Source: Escherichia coli
Lineage (GTDB): Bacteria; Pseudomonadota; Gammaproteobacteria; Enterobacterales; Enterobacteriaceae
NCBI RefSeq assembly: GCF_013122565.1
Contig: NZ_CP053258.1
Direction: 5' to 3' (one strand)
Length of the DNA stretch: 64,000 nucleotides
Under the pieces are notes generated by a model. It ran no database searches. It was not told where the DNA came from and saw only the letters and a program-made list of their open reading frames with translations. Shown piece after piece: positions 4,457-15,735 of the stretch. The first letter of the stretch is position 1. Each line of letters opens with the position of its first letter. Position numbers and translations under genes: made by a program.

Positions 4457-7400
4457 ATGAATAGAATCTATCGCGTGATATGGAATTGCACTCTACAGGT
4501 ATTTCAGGCCTGCTCTGAATTAACTCGCAGGGTAGGTAAAACATCAACGGTTAATTTGCGTAAATCCTTTGGACTGACAACGAAATTCAGTAGATTGACG
4601 CTGGGTGTTTTGCTGGCACTAAGCGGTTCAGTGTCTGGTGCGAGTCTGGAAGTTGATAATGGTCAGATTACCAATATTGATACTGATGTTGCTTATGATG
4701 CCTACCTGGTTGGCTGGTATGGCACTGGAGTGCTTAATATTTTGGCTGGCGGTAATGCCGCCTTAACCACTATTACTACCAGCGTCATTGGCGGTAATGA
4801 GGATTCGGAGGGTACCGTTAATGTTTTGGGTGGCACCTGGCGATTGTATGATAGCGGAAATAATGCAAGGCCTTTAAATGTGGGTCAATCCGGAACGGGG
4901 ACGCTGAATATTAAACAGAAGGGTCACGTCGATGGAGGCTATTTAAGATTAGGTACTCAAACTGCAGGCGTCGGGATGGTTAATGTTGAGGGAGAGGACT
5001 CGGTTTTGACGACCGAATTATTCGAAATAGGTAGCTATGGCACAGGTTCATTAAATATTACGGATAAGGGTTACGTCACGAGTTCAATCGTCGCCATTTT
5101 AGGCTATCAGGCGGGCAGTAATGGCCAGGTTGTCGTTGAAAAGGGTGGCGAGTGGCTAATAAAAAATAATGATTCCTCAATTGAATTTCAAATTGGTAAT
5201 CAAGGAACTGGGGAGGCGACTATTCGCGAGGGGGGGCTGGTTACGGCTGAAAATACGATTATCGGTGGCAATGCCACCGGTATCGGAACCCTGAATGTGC
5301 AGGATCAAGACTCTGTCATCACGGTACGCAGACTCTATAATGGATATTTCGGTAATGGCACAGTCAATATTTCCAATAATGGACTGATTAATAACAAAGA
5401 ATATTCATTGGTGGGCGTTCAGGACGGTTCCCACGGTGTCGTCAACGTGACCGATAAAGGGCATTGGAATTTCCTCGGAACGGGCGAAGCTTTCCGCTAT
5501 ATCTATATCGGTGATGCTGGCGACGGTGAACTTAATGTCTCGAGTGAAGGCAAAGTAGATTCGGGAATTATCACTGCGGGGATGAAAGAAACAGGCACAG
5601 GCAACATTACTGTTAAGGATAAGAACTCCGTTATCACTAATCTCGGAACTAATCTTGGTTATGACGGCCACGGCGAAATGAATATCAGTAATCAGGGGCT
5701 TGTTGTCAGCAACGGAGGAAGTTCACTCGGTTATGGAGAAACCGGCGTCGGGAATGTCAGCATCACCACGGGGGGAATGTGGGAGGTCAATAAGAATGTC
5801 TATACCACCATTGGTGTTGCGGGCGTCGGAAACCTCAATATTAGCGATGGCGGTAAGTTCGTATCGCAAAATATTACTTTTTTGGGTGATAAAGCAAGCG
5901 GTATCGGCACATTGAACCTGATGGATGCGACATCATCGTTCGATACTGTGGGTATCAATGTCGGTAATTTTGGTAGCGGCATCGTAAATGTCAGTAATGG
6001 CGCCACCCTTAATTCAACGGGCTATGGATTTATCGGAGGAAATGCCTCCGGTAAGGGAATAGTTAATATTTCAACGGATAGTCTCTGGAATTTAAAGACG
6101 TCTTCTACTAACGCCCAATTGCTACAGGTCGGTGTATTAGGCACGGGTGAACTGAATATTACCACCGGAGGTATAGTTAAAGCGAGTGATACACAGATAG
6201 CTCTCAATGACAAAAGTAAGGGCGACGTGAGGGTGGATGGGCAGAACTCTCTTCTTGAAACATTCAATATGTACGTAGGGACATCTGGTACGGGTACGTT
6301 AACCCTGACGAATAGCGGCACGCTGAATGTCGAAGGTGGAGAAGTTTACTTAGGTGTTTTTGAACCTGCTGTAGGAACGCTAAACATTGGTGCAGCTCAC
6401 GGTGAGGCGGCGGCAGATGCCGGGTATATAACCAACGCGACGAAAGTAGAGTTTGGCTCTGGCGAAGGTGTTTTTGTCTTTAATCATACTAATAACAGTG
6501 ATGCCGGCTACCAGGTCGATATGCTGATTACAGGTGACGATAAATACGGAAAAGTGATCCATGATGCAGGCCATACGGTGTTCAATGCAGGGAATACTTA
6601 TAGCGGTAAAACGCTGGTCAATGACGGCCTCCTGACCATTGCGTCTCATACGGCAGATGGGGTAACGGGCATGGGTTCGAGTGAAGTAACCATTGCAAGC
6701 CCCGGTACGCTCGACATTCTCGCATCAACGAACAGTGCAGGAGATTACACGCTGACCAATGCGCTCAAAGGCGATGGCTTGATGCGAGTGCAGCTGTCAT
6801 CCTCCGACAAGATGTTTGGCTTTACCCATGCAACAGGGACTGAATTCGCCGGTGTTGCCCAACTGAAAGACAGTACCTTCACTCTGGAACGCGACAACAC
6901 CGCTGCGCTTACTCACGCGATGTTGCAGTCTGACATTGAAAATACCACATCGGTAAACGTGGGAGAGCAATCCATTGGTGGACTGGCCATGAATGGCGGT
7001 ACGCTCATTTTCGATACGGATATTCCTGCTGCGACGCTTGCAGAGGGATATATCAGCGTCGATACGCTGGTTGTCGGCGCGGGTGACTACACCTGGAAAG
7101 GCCGTAACTATCAGGTAAACGGGACGGGCGACGTGCTTATCGACGTGCCAAAACCGTGGAATGATCCCATGGCGAATAACCCTCTGACGACGCTCAATTT
7201 GCTGGAACACGACGATAGCCATGTCGGCGTTCAACTGGTGAAGGCGCAAACGGTTATTGGGTCGGGTGGCTCATTAACGTTACGTGATTTACAGGGCGAC
7301 GAGGTGGAAGCGGACAAAACGTTACACATTGCGCAAAACGGAACGGTGGTCGCCGAGGGTGATTATGGATTCCGCCTCACGACCGCACCAGGTGATGGTT

Positions 7401-15100: not shown

Positions 15101-15735
15101 ACCGTAGCGCTGGTACTGCCTCCGGAAAGAATATTTTGTGTGCCTGAGCTATTAATAGTGGTGCCAGAGGCAATGCCACCACTACTGACACGTTGCTGAC
15201 CACCCGAACTGATATTTGTATCTTCAGAGATACCACCGGATAAAATCGTCTGGTTTCCACCGTTAAAAATAATGGTGCTTGATGCATGACCAAGATTATA
15301 GATGTTCTGAGCTCCGCCACTTAAGTTTGTTGCAGAAGTAACTCCTCCAGAACTAACACGTTGCACCCCTCCAGAATTTACAATGGTACTTATTGCAGTT
15401 CCTGAGTTCCCAACGTTCTGAGCTCCCGAACTATTAACTGTTGTAGAGGTGGTTTTCCCTCCATTGTTGACGTTCTGTATTCCCCCGCTATTTACTGTGG
15501 CGTTGCTGGTTTGACCATTTGAATAAACAACCTGTGTTTCTCCGGAAGAGACAACTCCGTTAGAAACAACACCACTAGAAACGTTTTGTGCAAAAGCATT
15601 TCCGACAGTAGAAGCTACTGTTAATACCAGAAGTGTGTTTTTCGCAAGGACGAAGCCATGTCCTCTGGCTAACTCAGAGGCCACAACCCATGCCTGCCGG
15701 GAGCTATTCCATACAATGCTGTATGCCCTGTTCAT
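12148..15735 (-). CDS. AIDA-I/TibA-like self-associating autotransporter adhesin
   Basis: 1195-aa ORF with extended signal peptide motif (MNRAYSIVWNSSRQAWVVASELARGHG). The passenger holds about 20 degenerate 19-residue repeats (x-SGG-x-Q-x-V-SSGG-x-AS-x-T-x-VN), the hallmark of heptosylated AIDA-I/TibA-type adhesins, and a C-terminal beta-barrel domain. It lies immediately downstream of a heptosyltransferase gene. Possibly EhaJ-like; I cannot confirm that. Confidence 0.8.
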   Translation of the reverse strand: MNRAYSIVWNSSRQAWVVASELARGHGFVLAKNTLLVLTVASTVGNAFAQNVSSGVVSNGVVSSGETQVVYSNGQTSNATVNSGGIQNVNNGGKTTSTTVNSSGAQNVGNSGTAISTIVNSGGVQRVSSGGVTSATNLSGGAQNIYNLGHASSTIIFNGGNQTILSGGISEDTNISSGGQQRVSSGGIASGTTINSSGTQNILSGGSTSATVVNSGGFQRVSAGGIATGTKLSGGTQNISSGGKASATEVFSGGKQNIYADGIASGTRINQSGYVNISSGGYAESTIINSGGTQSVLSNGLASGTMINNSGRENVSNGGASYNAIINDGGNQYIYSNGEATGATVNTSGFQRVSAGGTATGTKLSGGNQNVSSGGSAIAAEVYSDGKQTVYSGGEASGTQIFDGGMINVSGGTVSGASVNQNGRLNAYAGNVAGTILNKEGRQYIHSGASATSTVANNDGREYVLSGGVAYGTVLNSGGLQAVSGGGSASSTVINEGGFQFVYEGGNVSGTVIKNGGEIRVDAGASALNIALSGGGNLFTSTGATITGTNRYGSFFVSQNHASNVVLENGGLLAVTSGGTATDTTVNSAGRLRIDEGGALDGTTTINTDGIVAGAKIKNDGDFILNLAGDYDFNTELSGNGALIKDNSGFMSYEGTLTQARGVNVKNGGIILGSAVVNADMAVSQNAYINISDQATINGSVNNNGSVVINNSIINGNITNDADLSFGTAKLLSATVNGSLVNNKNIILNPTKESAGNTLTVANYTGTPGSVISLGGVLEGDNSLTDRLVVKGNTSGQSDIVYVNEGGSGGQTREGINIISIEGNSDAEFSLKNRVVAGAYDYTLQKGNVSGTDNKGWYLTSHLPTSDTRQYRPENGSYATNMALANSLFLMDLNERKQFSAVSDNTQPESASVWMKITGGRTSGKLSDGQNKTTTNQFINQLGGDIYKYHAEKLGDFTLGIMGGYANAKGKTINHTSKKRARNTLDGYSAGLYGTWYQNGANATGLFAETWMQYNWFNASVKGDGLEEEKYNLNGLTASVGGGYNLNVHTWTSPEGIKGEFWLQPHLQAIWMGVTPDTHQEDNGTVVQGTGKNNLQTKAGIRASWNVKSTLDKDTGREFRPYIEANWIHNTHEFGVKMSGDSQLLSGGRNQGEIKTGIDGVITQNLSVNGGVAYQAGGHGSNAISGALGIKYSFR
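14298..15558 (-). repeat. Tandem degenerate 19-codon repeats in the adhesin passenger, including two near-identical ~130-nt direct repeats at about 14580-14710 and 14970-15100
   Basis: Visible at DNA level: ACCGCCGCTTAGTTTTGTTCCCGTGGCTGTACCACCTGCACTGACGCGCTGGAAACCGCTGGTATTAAC versus ACCACCGCTCAGTTTTGTTCCCGTGGCTATGCCACCCGCACTGACTCGCTGAAAACCGCCGGAATTAAC. Confidence 0.7.

What the first reader, a model, noticed from the sequence alone, without database searches (positions are those of the whole stretch)
4457..15735. Two AIDA-type autotransporters converge on the hipBA module
ydeK (plus strand) and the island adhesin (minus strand) bracket hipBA. Only the island adhesin has classic 19-residue heptosylation repeats; ydeK has longer beta-helix repeats. 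Whether the island heptosyltransferase can also modify YdeK, or whether the arrangement is coincidental, is open.
Basis: inference. Interest (0 to 1): 0.3.

Follow-up and report, generated by a model that had tools for sequence, protein, structure and literature searches.

The report
Adhesin island inserted beside chromosome dif site
Two adhesin-type autotransporter genes do face each other across the hipBA toxin-antitoxin genes, but only because a mobile, normally plasmid-borne AIDA-I adhesin cassette landed next to dif, the chromosome's dimer-resolution site just after hipA; it is an ordinary insertion hotspot, not a functional unit.

Summary
An intact ECSE_1600/YdeK autotransporter gene (4457-9877, +) and an AIDA-I adhesin gene (12148-15735, -) with its Aah/TibC-type heptosyltransferase gene (15750-16910, -) flank hipBA. 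Only AIDA-I carries 19-residue repeats; YdeK has 24-26-residue rungs.

The pairing is not a conserved unit. The ydeK-hipBA junction is intact in 3,680 of 5,426 complete E. coli genomes. aah occurs in 35 genomes, always on plasmids. No complete genome has the hipA-aidA junction, and a few strains carry decayed remnants of this same island.

A perfect 28-bp dif site (11763-11790) lies 75 bp after hipA, and all 11 KOPS motifs in the window point towards it. K-12 homology ends at its last base, and the island starts right after it.

The 5-kb aah-aidA module is bounded by IS3-type ends. At least six AIDA plasmids carry a dif-like site plus the same ~100-bp arm at the same distance from aidA. I infer dif-directed integration, or plasmid-chromosome exchange there.

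Aah looks functional: 12 of 12 key TibC residues are kept. Whether it modifies YdeK stays untested and looks unlikely to be extensive (no SGG turns, five Ser-start turns). Every component is already known.

The parts
4457..9877 (+). ECSE_1600-family (YdeK/YneO) type Va autotransporter, intact, 1806 aa. Core E. coli gene, last large gene of the left replichore.
   Evidence: NF011422 scores 4118 bits against a cut-off of 2335, matched full length. ESPR, PATR, AC_1 and Autotransporter domains. 98% identical to the K-12 yneO pseudogene region. Model is a beta-solenoid.
9933..9946 (+). Terminator-like hairpin plus T-run after ydeK. It separates ydeK from the hipBA promoter.
   Evidence: Consensus scan. 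Inference only.
9966..10078 (+). Four perfect HipB operators, TATCC-N8-GGATA, in the hipBA promoter region.
   Evidence: four zero-mismatch sites at 9966, 9994, 10033 and 10061. Shuffles give a mean of 1.5 for the whole window.
10100..10366 (+). hipB antitoxin/repressor, 88 aa.
   Evidence: HTH_3, E 3.6e-15. RefSeq annotation of collinear genomes.
10366..11688 (+). hipA kinase toxin, 440 aa. Its start overlaps the hipB stop by 1 nt.
   Evidence: Couple_hipA and HipA_C domains. RefSeq annotation.
11763..11790 (+). dif, the XerC/XerD chromosome dimer resolution site: GGTGCGCATAA-TGTATA-TTATGTTAAAT.
   Evidence: Identical to the E. coli dif consensus printed in PMC3325230. Present at the same place in K-12, UTME-7, LR881940 and ET201. 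All 11 KOPS motifs point to it. The GC-skew turning point is here. hipA is described as adjacent to dif in PMC5638614.
11791..11888 (+). About 100-bp 'arm' directly after dif. It is absent from K-12-type genomes and shared with integrase-bearing elements and with AIDA plasmids.
   Evidence: K-12 homology stops at 11790. Only 898 of the 4,544 matching genomes cover it. It is 84% identical to sequence next to a dif-like site on AIDA plasmids. It is followed by tyrosine integrase genes in LR881940 and in Klebsiella plasmid p4710.
12100..12125 (+). Solo IS3-type terminal repeat, TGTAGTGGCCAAGTAATATTGGACAC, abutting the left edge of the aah-aidA module.
   Evidence: Direct repeat of 17128-17153, 81% identical, spacing 5028. 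Plasmid homology starts at 12128.
12148..15735 (-). AIDA-I autotransporter adhesin, 1195 aa, with 23 or more 19-residue strand-loop-strand repeats.
   Evidence: NF033176 scores 2438 bits against a cut-off of 1200; TIGR04415 x15. PDB 4MEE (AIDA-I beta-domain), E 7e-283. 82% identical to a common 1288-aa AIDA-I; the 93 missing residues are repeat-sized gaps.
15750..16910 (-). Aah/TibC-family (BAHT) autotransporter O-heptosyltransferase, 386 aa.
   Evidence: TIGR04414 scores 602 bits against a cut-off of 200. Gapless match to TibC structure 4RAP, E 4e-196. 12 of 12 functional residues conserved.
12128..17127 (.). 5.0-kb aah-aidA module shared with plasmids at about 95% identity.
   Evidence: Found on 65 plasmids, all Escherichia, 36 of them at 80% coverage or more.
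17128..17631 (-). Internally deleted IS3-family element. Both terminal repeats and an N-terminal HTH fragment are left.
   Evidence: Terminal repeat at 17128-17153. Weak HTH_21 and HTH_Tnp_1 hits, below Pfam cut-offs. RefSeq calls the collinear stretch 'IS3 family transposase, incomplete'.

Best explanation
The two autotransporter genes are neighbours by accident of chromosome geography. They are not a functional unit.

ydeK-hipBA-dif is a fixed feature of the E. coli replication terminus. dif, the 28-bp XerCD site, lies 75 bp after hipA. DNA immediately beyond its XerD arm is a hypervariable insertion hotspot.

In this strain's lineage, a 5-kb mobile cassette occupies the first position beyond dif. 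It carries aah (heptosyltransferase) and aidA (AIDA-I adhesin), is bounded by IS3-type ends, and is otherwise plasmid-borne.

The cassette most likely arrived by site-specific exchange at dif. The vehicle would be a plasmid or integrative element carrying a dif-like site plus the same ~100-bp arm (inferred).

The convergent orientation follows from position. Each gene lies on the leading strand of its own replichore, and the two replichores meet at dif.

Aah works as published for the family. In the cytoplasm it transfers heptose from ADP-heptose onto serines at the loop starts of the 19-residue strand-loop-strand repeats of AIDA-I, which the adhesin needs for its normal conformation and for adhesion. 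Here this is inferred from sequence conservation, not shown. hipBA is regulated separately through its four HipB operators.
For: dif and orientation:
- A perfect dif site lies at 11763-11790.
- All 11 KOPS motifs in the window point towards it: 2 on the + strand to its left, 9 on the - strand to its right.
- GC skew turns at this point.
- The literature describes hipA as adjacent to dif (PMC5638614).

Hotspot:
- K-12 homology ends at the last base of dif. It resumes 14.9 kb later.
- Other strains carry different DNA at the same point. LR881940 has integrase genes and K-12 has yneL and fimbrial genes.
- The strain of L006 has a BCCT-transporter segment joined to the island inside the XerD arm; the same segment sits next to integrase genes in CP104681.

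Independence of the two adhesins:
- The ydeK-hipB-hipA junction is at least 80% present in 3,680 of 5,426 genomes.
- aah is in 35 genomes, at 44 places, all on plasmids and none chromosomal.
- No genome covers the hipA-aidA junction.
- The module is on 65 Escherichia plasmids.

One lineage, now decaying:
- UTME-7 keeps 99.8%-identical remnants of the island with deletions of 12006-12771 and 14051-17339.
- ET201 keeps an 'AIDA repeat-containing protein' fragment beside the same IS3 remnant and MFS gene, with an IS1 inserted.
- CP52E, LHM10-1 and VG1046-3E9 show matching truncated autotransporter annotations at this locus.
- Intact copies exist in only a few assemblies.

Mobility:
- IS3-type terminal repeats sit at both module edges.
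- At least six AIDA plasmids carry GGTGCGCATAATCTATCTTATGTTAAAT plus the arm, 377 bp from the aidA stop. The window has the same layout at 358 bp, in the same orientation.

Enzyme-substrate pair:
- Curated models are passed for both proteins.
- 12 of 12 TibC catalytic, sugar-binding, iron-finger and thumb residues are conserved (residue list from PMC4358343).
Against: - No second dif-like site (attR) was found anywhere in the window at up to 4 arm mismatches.
- No target-site duplications flank the IS3-type ends.
- The ~250 bp between the arm and the module is not homologous between window and plasmid.
- The arm is only 84% identical to the plasmid arm while the module is 95% identical. The history is therefore mosaic, and the direction of transfer (plasmid to chromosome or the reverse) is unresolved.
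- No empty site with hipA-dif abutting the MFS gene exists in 5,426 genomes. The island cannot be separated from the rest of the rare 14.9-kb segment.
- Absence of a functional link is inferred from distribution. It was not tested.
Confidence: 0.8

Rival explanations
1. Functional cross-talk: Aah also heptosylates YdeK, so the strain gains a second glycosylated adhesin. This would work in trans and would be equally true for plasmid-borne aah.
For: - Aah and TibC are interchangeable and modify AIDA-I, TibA and Ag43. [quoted passage not shown]
- The YdeK N-terminal passenger is modelled as a beta-solenoid.
- Its best Foldseek hits in the PDB are exactly the known substrates: Ag43 4KH3 at E 1e-6 and TibC-glycosylated TibA 4Q1Q at E 7.5e-5.
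- 13 of 57 modelled inter-strand loops start with Ser or Thr, in recurrent xN[IV]-[ST]xxG turns at residues 89-640.
Against: - YdeK has no TIGR04415 or Pfam AIDA repeats, and the repeat HMM gives no hit.
- It has 0 S[GS]G turns against 33 in AIDA-I, and only 5 Ser-start turns of its own motif.
- Mapped sites are serines, not threonines (PMC4358343).
- Its rungs are 24-26 residues rather than 19, and TM-scores to Ag43 and TibA are at most 0.36. The TibC ring and iron finger are described as tuned to the TibA helix.
- The model was built from a single sequence, with pLDDT 72.
Confidence: 0.18
2. hipBA acts as an addiction module that stabilises the flanking adhesin genes, so the adhesins are retained because they sit beside it.
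For: Loss or degradation of the terminus region including hipBA arrests growth through freed HipA (PMC5638614). Loss of the whole region is therefore counter-selected.
Against: Small deletions are not prevented. The island is decayed in UTME-7 and ET201 with hipBA intact. ydeK is a pseudogene in K-12 and ET201 with hipBA intact. One strain (L006) has the intact island with no hipBA within 4 kb.
Confidence: 0.04
3. The two autotransporter genes are a local duplication, or a recombination product of each other.
For: They share domain architecture and 35% identity over the C-terminal 600 residues.
Against: The passengers are unrelated; blastp with composition adjustment gives E of 0.015 or worse. 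The island copy is 95% identical to plasmid aidA in DNA and has its own aah. It is bounded by IS ends.
Confidence: 0.01

Closest known systems
AIDA-I / Aah system of diffusely adhering and porcine E. coli (plasmid-borne aah-aidA operon)
   Same: Same gene order (aah then aidA) and the same curated families (NF033176, TIGR04414, TIGR04415). It has the same 19-residue repeats, autochaperone and beta-barrel, and the C-terminal 447 residues match PDB 4MEE at E 7e-283. All TibC functional residues are kept.
   Different: It is chromosomal, next to dif, whereas all 44 copies in 5,426 complete genomes are on plasmids. The adhesin is 93 residues (about 5 repeats) shorter than the common 1288-aa form and 82% identical to it. 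aah ends 6 codons early, so the aah/aidA overlap is lost. Position 294 is Ala, against Ser in AAH and Pro in TibC.
IMEXs (integrative mobile elements exploiting Xer, e.g. CTXphi of Vibrio cholerae) and other dif-targeted elements
   Same: The accessory DNA begins exactly at the edge of dif. A dif-like site with perfect XerC and XerD arms and a divergent central region lies on the plasmid copies, and homology starts at that site.
   Different: No second site, no phage or Xer-activating genes, and no experimental integration. IS3 ends suggest that transposition also shaped the island. The arm also belongs to elements that carry their own tyrosine integrases, so the recombinase involved is unknown.
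Self-associating autotransporters Ag43 and TibA (known non-cognate substrates of Aah/TibC)
   Same: The modelled YdeK N-terminal beta-helix has these as its nearest solved folds.
   Different: YdeK lacks the 19-residue repeat family and SGG turns. Its rungs are 24-26 residues and belong to TIGR04393.
E. coli K-12 terminus locus lsrK-yneO(ydeK)-hipBA-dif-yneL-ydeT
   Same: 98% identical and collinear through dif. Same four HipB operators.
   Different: ydeK is intact here and a pseudogene in K-12. The window has 14.9 kb extra after dif (11791-26700) and an intact fimbrial usher.

Membership tests
AIDA-I autotransporter adhesin (NCBIfam NF033176) | Whole-protein score above the curated cut-off | tested here: met
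   2437.9 bits against a cut-off of 1200.
AIDA-I autotransporter adhesin (NCBIfam NF033176) | Array of ~19-residue strand-loop-strand (heptosylation target) repeats in the passenger | tested here: met
   TIGR04415 x15 and Pfam AIDA x8. Lag-19 autocorrelation peak. 23 repeat-HMM hits.
AIDA-I autotransporter adhesin (NCBIfam NF033176) | Type Va translocation unit: ESPR signal, AC_1 autochaperone, C-terminal beta-barrel | tested here: met
   PDB 4MEE at E 7e-283.
AIDA-I autotransporter adhesin (NCBIfam NF033176) | Cognate heptosyltransferase gene directly upstream | tested here: met
   aah at 15750-16910 ends 14 nt before the aidA start.
AIDA-I autotransporter adhesin (NCBIfam NF033176) | Glycosylation-dependent adhesion to epithelial cells | not testable with these tools
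   Needs experiment.
BAHT (Aah/TibC) autotransporter heptosyltransferases | Equivalog model TIGR04414 above cut-off, with TibC N-terminal barrel and GT9 domain | tested here: met
   602 bits against a cut-off of 200. TibC_1st and Glyco_transf_9 domains.
BAHT (Aah/TibC) autotransporter heptosyltransferases | Catalytic base Asp110 and sugar-binding residues Thr226, Lys230, Arg286, Trp305 (TibC numbering) | tested here: met
   All five conserved. Residue list from PMC4358343.
BAHT (Aah/TibC) autotransporter heptosyltransferases | Iron-finger Cys4 (339, 342, 358, 370) and beta-hairpin thumb Phe265/Val266 with Phe368, needed for the dodecamer | tested here: met
   All seven conserved. Residue list.
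BAHT (Aah/TibC) autotransporter heptosyltransferases | Heptosyltransferase activity on the partner | not testable with these tools
   Needs biochemistry.
ECSE_1600 family autotransporter (YdeK/YneO) | Full-length match to NF011422 above cut-off | tested here: met
   4118.5 bits against a cut-off of 2335, positions 1-1806 of 1806.
Heptosylation substrates (SAAT-type passengers), asked of YdeK | 19-residue strand-loop-strand repeats (TIGR04415 / PF16168) | tested here: not met
   No hit in Pfam or NCBIfam. The repeat HMM scores all fall below 0.
Heptosylation substrates (SAAT-type passengers), asked of YdeK | Beta-helix presenting Ser at the start of inter-strand loops within the first ~600 residues | tested here: inconclusive
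   The model is a solenoid nearest to Ag43 and TibA, but with TM at most 0.36. It has 5 Ser-start turns and 0 SGG turns, against 33 in AIDA-I.
hipBA type II toxin-antitoxin module | HTH antitoxin gene overlapping a HipA kinase gene, with four TATCC-N8-GGATA operators upstream | tested here: met
E. coli dif (XerCD site) | 28-bp consensus at the KOPS and GC-skew convergence, single copy | tested here: met
   28 of 28 bases identical and a single copy in the window. 11 of 11 KOPS motifs polarised towards it. Skew turns here.
IMEX (Xer-exploiting integrative element), asked of the island | Element flanked by dif and a second dif-like site, carrying its own dif-like attP | tested here: inconclusive
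   The left junction is at dif, and the plasmid copies have a dif-like site plus the arm. No second site was found in the window.
   0 of 5,426 genomes share the junction. aah is plasmid-only elsewhere. ydeK-hipBA is present without it in 3,680 genomes.

The most novel reading that the evidence does not exclude
The aah-aidA adhesin cassette travels as cargo of a dif-directed element. It would shuttle between dif-like sites on large conjugative plasmids and the chromosomal dif by XerCD, or by a dif-specific tyrosine recombinase. That would make it an adhesin-carrying, IMEX-like island in E. coli, and the dif-like-site-plus-arm sequence found on 149 enterobacterial plasmids would be its portable attachment region.
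Probability: 0.3. Interest if true: 0.5.

Novelty: already known. Interest (0 to 1): 0.2.

Why it matters
As posed, the finding does not matter much. It is a chance neighbourhood of three well-known modules, and the cross-glycosylation question is independent of gene position.

What is modestly useful is the correction. The real landmark is dif, and a virulence adhesin operon regarded as plasmid-borne can sit intact in the chromosome at the first position beyond dif. Related plasmids carry a dif-like site at the matching position.

If Xer-mediated or other dif-directed exchange moves this cassette, it would be a route for fixing plasmid virulence genes in the E. coli terminus. It would also explain why the DNA after dif is so variable. 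The strain is also a natural host in which intact YdeK and Aah coexist, which is convenient for testing how far BAHT substrate range extends.

Tried and rejected
- I suspected from memory that K-12 'ydeU' was a remnant of the island adhesin. That was wrong. K-12 has no island DNA, and the only autotransporter remnant in its annotation here is the single yneO pseudogene.
- I tried to show that ydeK is interrupted in assembly GCA_018578885.1 (L008). The collection's gene call there is 466 aa and the ORF listing gave 636 aa. The frame is open for all 709 codons I hold. The gene's state is unresolved and I did not use it.
- I looked for an 'empty site' with hipA-dif joined directly to the MFS gene. 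None exists in 5,426 genomes.
- I looked for a second dif-like site (attR) in the window and in fetched loci. None was found at up to 4 arm mismatches. K-12's 207 bp after dif are absent from the window.
- I looked for target-site duplications around the IS3-type ends. There are none.
- The 85-aa ORF at 11889-12146 has no Pfam or NCBIfam hit. I treat it as non-coding junk.
- The 'plasmid' pBone4_4 (CP054253) has a 92% arm match but carries uxaB and tam, chromosomal genes by my own knowledge of the K-12 map. It looks like a mislabelled chromosome piece, so I did not count it as evidence.
- The simple scan found no intrinsic terminator between hipA and aidA. Convergent read-through is possible but untested.
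- I did not run a GTDB or metagenome scan. The E. coli and plasmid surveys already answered the co-occurrence question.

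
Full report
**What is there**

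The window is E. coli chromosome. The three key proteins are exact matches to GenBank QJU24222, QJU24225 and QJU24226, from a 4.82-Mb contig. From left to right the region holds:
- lsrR and lsrK
- an intact ECSE_1600-family autotransporter gene, ydeK/yneO, at 4457-9877 (+), 1806 aa
- hipB at 10100-10366 (+) and hipA at 10366-11688 (+)
- on the opposite strand, an AIDA-I adhesin gene at 12148-15735 (1195 aa), preceded by an Aah/TibC-type heptosyltransferase gene at 15750-16910 (386 aa)
- an IS3-family remnant, then an MFS transporter gene

**Check of the observation**

Both large proteins are type Va autotransporters with AIDA-I-type export machinery:
- Both have an ESPR signal, an AC_1 autochaperone and a beta-barrel.
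- Both match the solved AIDA-I beta-domain 4MEE, at E 6e-88 for YdeK and 7e-283 for the adhesin.
- Their C-terminal ~600 residues are 35% identical.

The passengers are different. For the adhesin:
- It passes NCBI's AIDA-I model, 2438 bits against a cut-off of 1200.
- It carries the curated 'O-heptosylation target' repeat TIGR04415 x15 and Pfam AIDA x8.
- Its self-similarity peaks at lag 19, BLOSUM 1.36 against -0.39 +/- 0.10 for shuffles.
- A repeat HMM built from it finds 23 copies between residues 74 and 597.

For YdeK:
- The same HMM finds nothing; all scores are negative.
- Its rung motif GxGxLN[IV] recurs every 24-26 residues from residue 89 to 611, and it belongs to repeat family TIGR04393.
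- A single-sequence AlphaFold model of residues 56-700 is an all-beta solenoid, pLDDT 72, pTM 0.77.

The statement 'only the island adhesin has 19-residue repeats; ydeK has longer beta-helix repeats' therefore holds.

I compared the region with 5,426 complete E. coli genomes.
- The ydeK 3' end-hipB-hipA 5' junction is at least 80% present in 3,680 genomes.
- An aah homologue is present in 35 genomes, at 44 places, every one on a plasmid.
- No genome covers the hipA-aidA junction or 80% of the whole region.
- The 5-kb aah-aidA module (window 12128-17127) is on 65 plasmids in PLSDB, all Escherichia, at 85-96% identity.

ydeK-hipBA is a stable chromosomal feature and aah-aidA is a mobile cassette.

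The chromosomal island is confined to a small lineage and is decaying there.
- UTME-7 keeps 99.8%-identical remnants at the same site, with deletions of window 12006-12771 and 14051-17339.
- ET201 keeps an 'AIDA repeat-containing protein' fragment beside the same IS3 remnant and MFS gene, with an IS1 inserted.
- CP52E, LHM10-1 and VG1046-3E9 show matching truncated autotransporter annotations at this locus.
- The intact form was found in three further places. One is a 100%-identical Logan contig, one is a 99.6%-identical assembly, and one is 99.9% identical but has different DNA where hipA should be.
- ydeK decays independently. It is a pseudogene in K-12 and is frameshifted in ET201.

Aligning the junctions showed a 28-bp block shared by every chromosome and by an AIDA plasmid. 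It is GGTGCGCATAATGTATATTATGTTAAAT at 11763-11790. This is the E. coli dif consensus printed in PMC3325230. dif is the XerC/XerD site that resolves chromosome dimers at the replication terminus.

Independent support:
- All 11 KOPS motifs (GGGNAGGG) in the window point at it. Two lie on the + strand to its left and nine on the - strand to its right. This is the polarity expected at a functional dif (established knowledge of FtsK-orienting sequences).
- The cumulative GC skew peaks there. Part of the local skew comes from the Gly-rich coding strands of the two adhesin genes.
- PMC5638614 calls hipA 'the adjacent locus' to dif.

The two genes therefore converge on the terminus. Each lies on the leading strand of its own replichore, which is the common orientation for bacterial genes. 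That accounts for the convergence without any functional link.

**Why the island is there**

Homology with K-12 stops at the last base of dif and resumes 14.9 kb later. Most genomes match the window only as far as dif. Only 898 of the 4,544 matching genomes continue into the ~100-bp 'arm' at 11791-11888.

Other strains carry different DNA at this point:
- tyrosine integrase genes in LR881940
- yneL and fimbrial genes in K-12
- in the strain of L006, a BCCT-transporter segment joined to the island inside the XerD arm of dif; the same segment sits next to integrase genes in CP104681

The DNA just past the XerD arm is a hypervariable hotspot.

The aah-aidA module is bracketed by 26-nt IS3-type terminal repeats in direct orientation, at 12100-12125 and 17128-17153. 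The right-hand repeat begins an internally deleted IS3-family element that runs to about 17631.

At least six AIDA plasmids carry a dif-like site, GGTGCGCATAATCTATCTTATGTTAAAT. They are CP122874, CP122878, CP122927, CP122834, AP027489 and CP043735. The site has both arms perfect and two changes in the central region. An 84%-identical copy of the arm follows it. It lies 377 bp from the aidA stop; in the window the distance is 358 bp, in the same orientation. Similarity between plasmid and chromosome starts at the XerC arm.

Homology that begins or ends exactly at the edge of a recombination site is what site-specific exchange leaves behind. I therefore infer that the cassette reached this position, or left it for plasmids, by dif-directed recombination, with IS3 activity reshaping it.

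This step is inferred, and several observations cut against a simple version of it:
- No second dif-like site survives in the window.
- The linker between arm and module differs between window and plasmid.
- The arm and the module differ in divergence, 84% against 95%.
- The same arm heads elements that carry their own integrases, so the recombinase is not identified.

**How the parts work**

Aah aligns without gaps to TibC structure 4RAP, E 4e-196. It keeps all of the following (residue roles from PMC4358343):
- the catalytic Asp
- the four sugar- and phosphate-binding residues
- the four iron-finger cysteines
- the three thumb/interface residues

It is very probably an active dodecameric heptosyltransferase. 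It would modify serines at the loop starts of the AIDA-I repeats in the cytoplasm, as published for the family. Position 294 is Ala, against Ser in AAH and Pro in TibC. This suggests AAH-like tolerance of both ADP-heptose epimers, which is a weak inference.

The adhesin is an allele of AIDA-I with about five fewer repeats.

hipBA has its four perfect HipB operators at 9966-10078, and a terminator-like hairpin separates it from ydeK. Nothing suggests shared regulation.

**Could Aah modify YdeK?**

Gene position is irrelevant, because the enzyme acts in trans.

In favour:
- The family is promiscuous. It modifies AIDA-I, TibA and Ag43, and it reads a loose strand-loop-strand motif.
- The YdeK model's nearest solved folds are Ag43 and glycosylated TibA, E 1e-6 to 7.5e-5.
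- 13 of 57 modelled loops start with Ser or Thr.

Against:
- YdeK has none of the target repeats.
- It has no S[GS]G turn, against 33 in AIDA-I, and only five Ser-start turns.
- The mapped sites in the family are serines, not threonines.
- Its helix has a different rung length, and TM-scores are at most 0.36.
- The TibC ring is described as tuned to its substrate's helix.

I put sparse modification at roughly one chance in five. Only an experiment can settle it.

**Comparison, novelty and verdict**

Every component is a known, curated family member. The hipA-dif adjacency is in the literature. The two-adhesin neighbourhood is a by-product of an insertion hotspot.

The one point I could not find described is an intact aah-aidA at the chromosomal dif, with dif-like sites on the plasmid copies. 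No paper in the searchable library holds both 'AIDA-I' and 'dif site'.

I rate the finding as already known in kind, with low interest. It carries a moderate-interest lead on dif-directed movement of a virulence cassette.

Noticed in passing
window 11791-26700: A 14.9-kb segment absent from K-12 lies between dif and the yneL remnant. It holds the AIDA island, then an MFS transporter, a cellulase-family glycosylhydrolase and a LacI regulator (17656-21400). After those come tcuR-tcuABC (tricarballylate utilisation) and a second MFS gene (21509-26412). The MFS end of it is at 99% identity or more in only about 11 records among 5,426 genomes.
   Followed up: partly
window 27278-34000 (usher at 29002-31653): The yde fimbrial operon is intact here, with a full-length 883-aa usher. 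K-12 has only the truncated ydeT, and UTME-7 has an IS3-associated deletion of window 27467-31317. Together with intact ydeK and the intact AIDA island, this strain keeps three surface-structure loci that are decayed in relatives.
   Followed up: partly
plasmid loci L010 3006-3117, L012 5001-5132, L014 4001-4129, L015 4001-4132: A dif-like site plus the ~100-bp arm occurs on 149 plasmids (Escherichia 74, Salmonella 41, Klebsiella 20 and others), mostly conjugative, at 70-93% identity. In two of them it lies directly beside an ISNCY-family transposase gene. In Klebsiella plasmid p4710 two tyrosine integrase genes follow it, as in the E. coli LR881940 chromosome. What this unit is was not resolved.
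   Followed up: partly
L006 13100-17161 (GCA_052983875.1): An isolate with the intact island (99.9% identical) diverges from the window inside the XerD arm of dif; only GTTAAAT is shared. It continues into a BCCT-transporter segment that sits next to tyrosine recombinase genes in CP104681. No hipBA or ydeK lies within 4 kb. This may be a tandem array of elements at dif.
   Followed up: partly
L001 15892-17304 (UTME-7), equivalent to window 11889-14050: The RefSeq protein 'autotransporter outer membrane beta-barrel domain-containing protein' (470 aa) in UTME-7 is an ORF that reads across a 766-bp deletion. It ends in non-adhesin sequence, so it is a deletion artefact and not a functional barrel.
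   Followed up: yes
window 15735-15765: aah stops at a TAG six codons before the stop used by the plasmid alleles. The 4-nt aah/aidA overlap seen on p48B2a is replaced by a 14-nt gap. The lost residues lie beyond the region aligned to the TibC structure.
   Followed up: yes
window 30435-30452: A fifth perfect TATCC-N8-GGATA match lies inside the fimbrial usher gene, far from hipBA. It is probably a chance match.
   Followed up: no
window 11791-24690: No KOPS motif occurs in the first ~13 kb to the right of dif; the first is at 24691. This is consistent with recently acquired DNA that has not been shaped by FtsK polarity, but the numbers are small.
   Followed up: no
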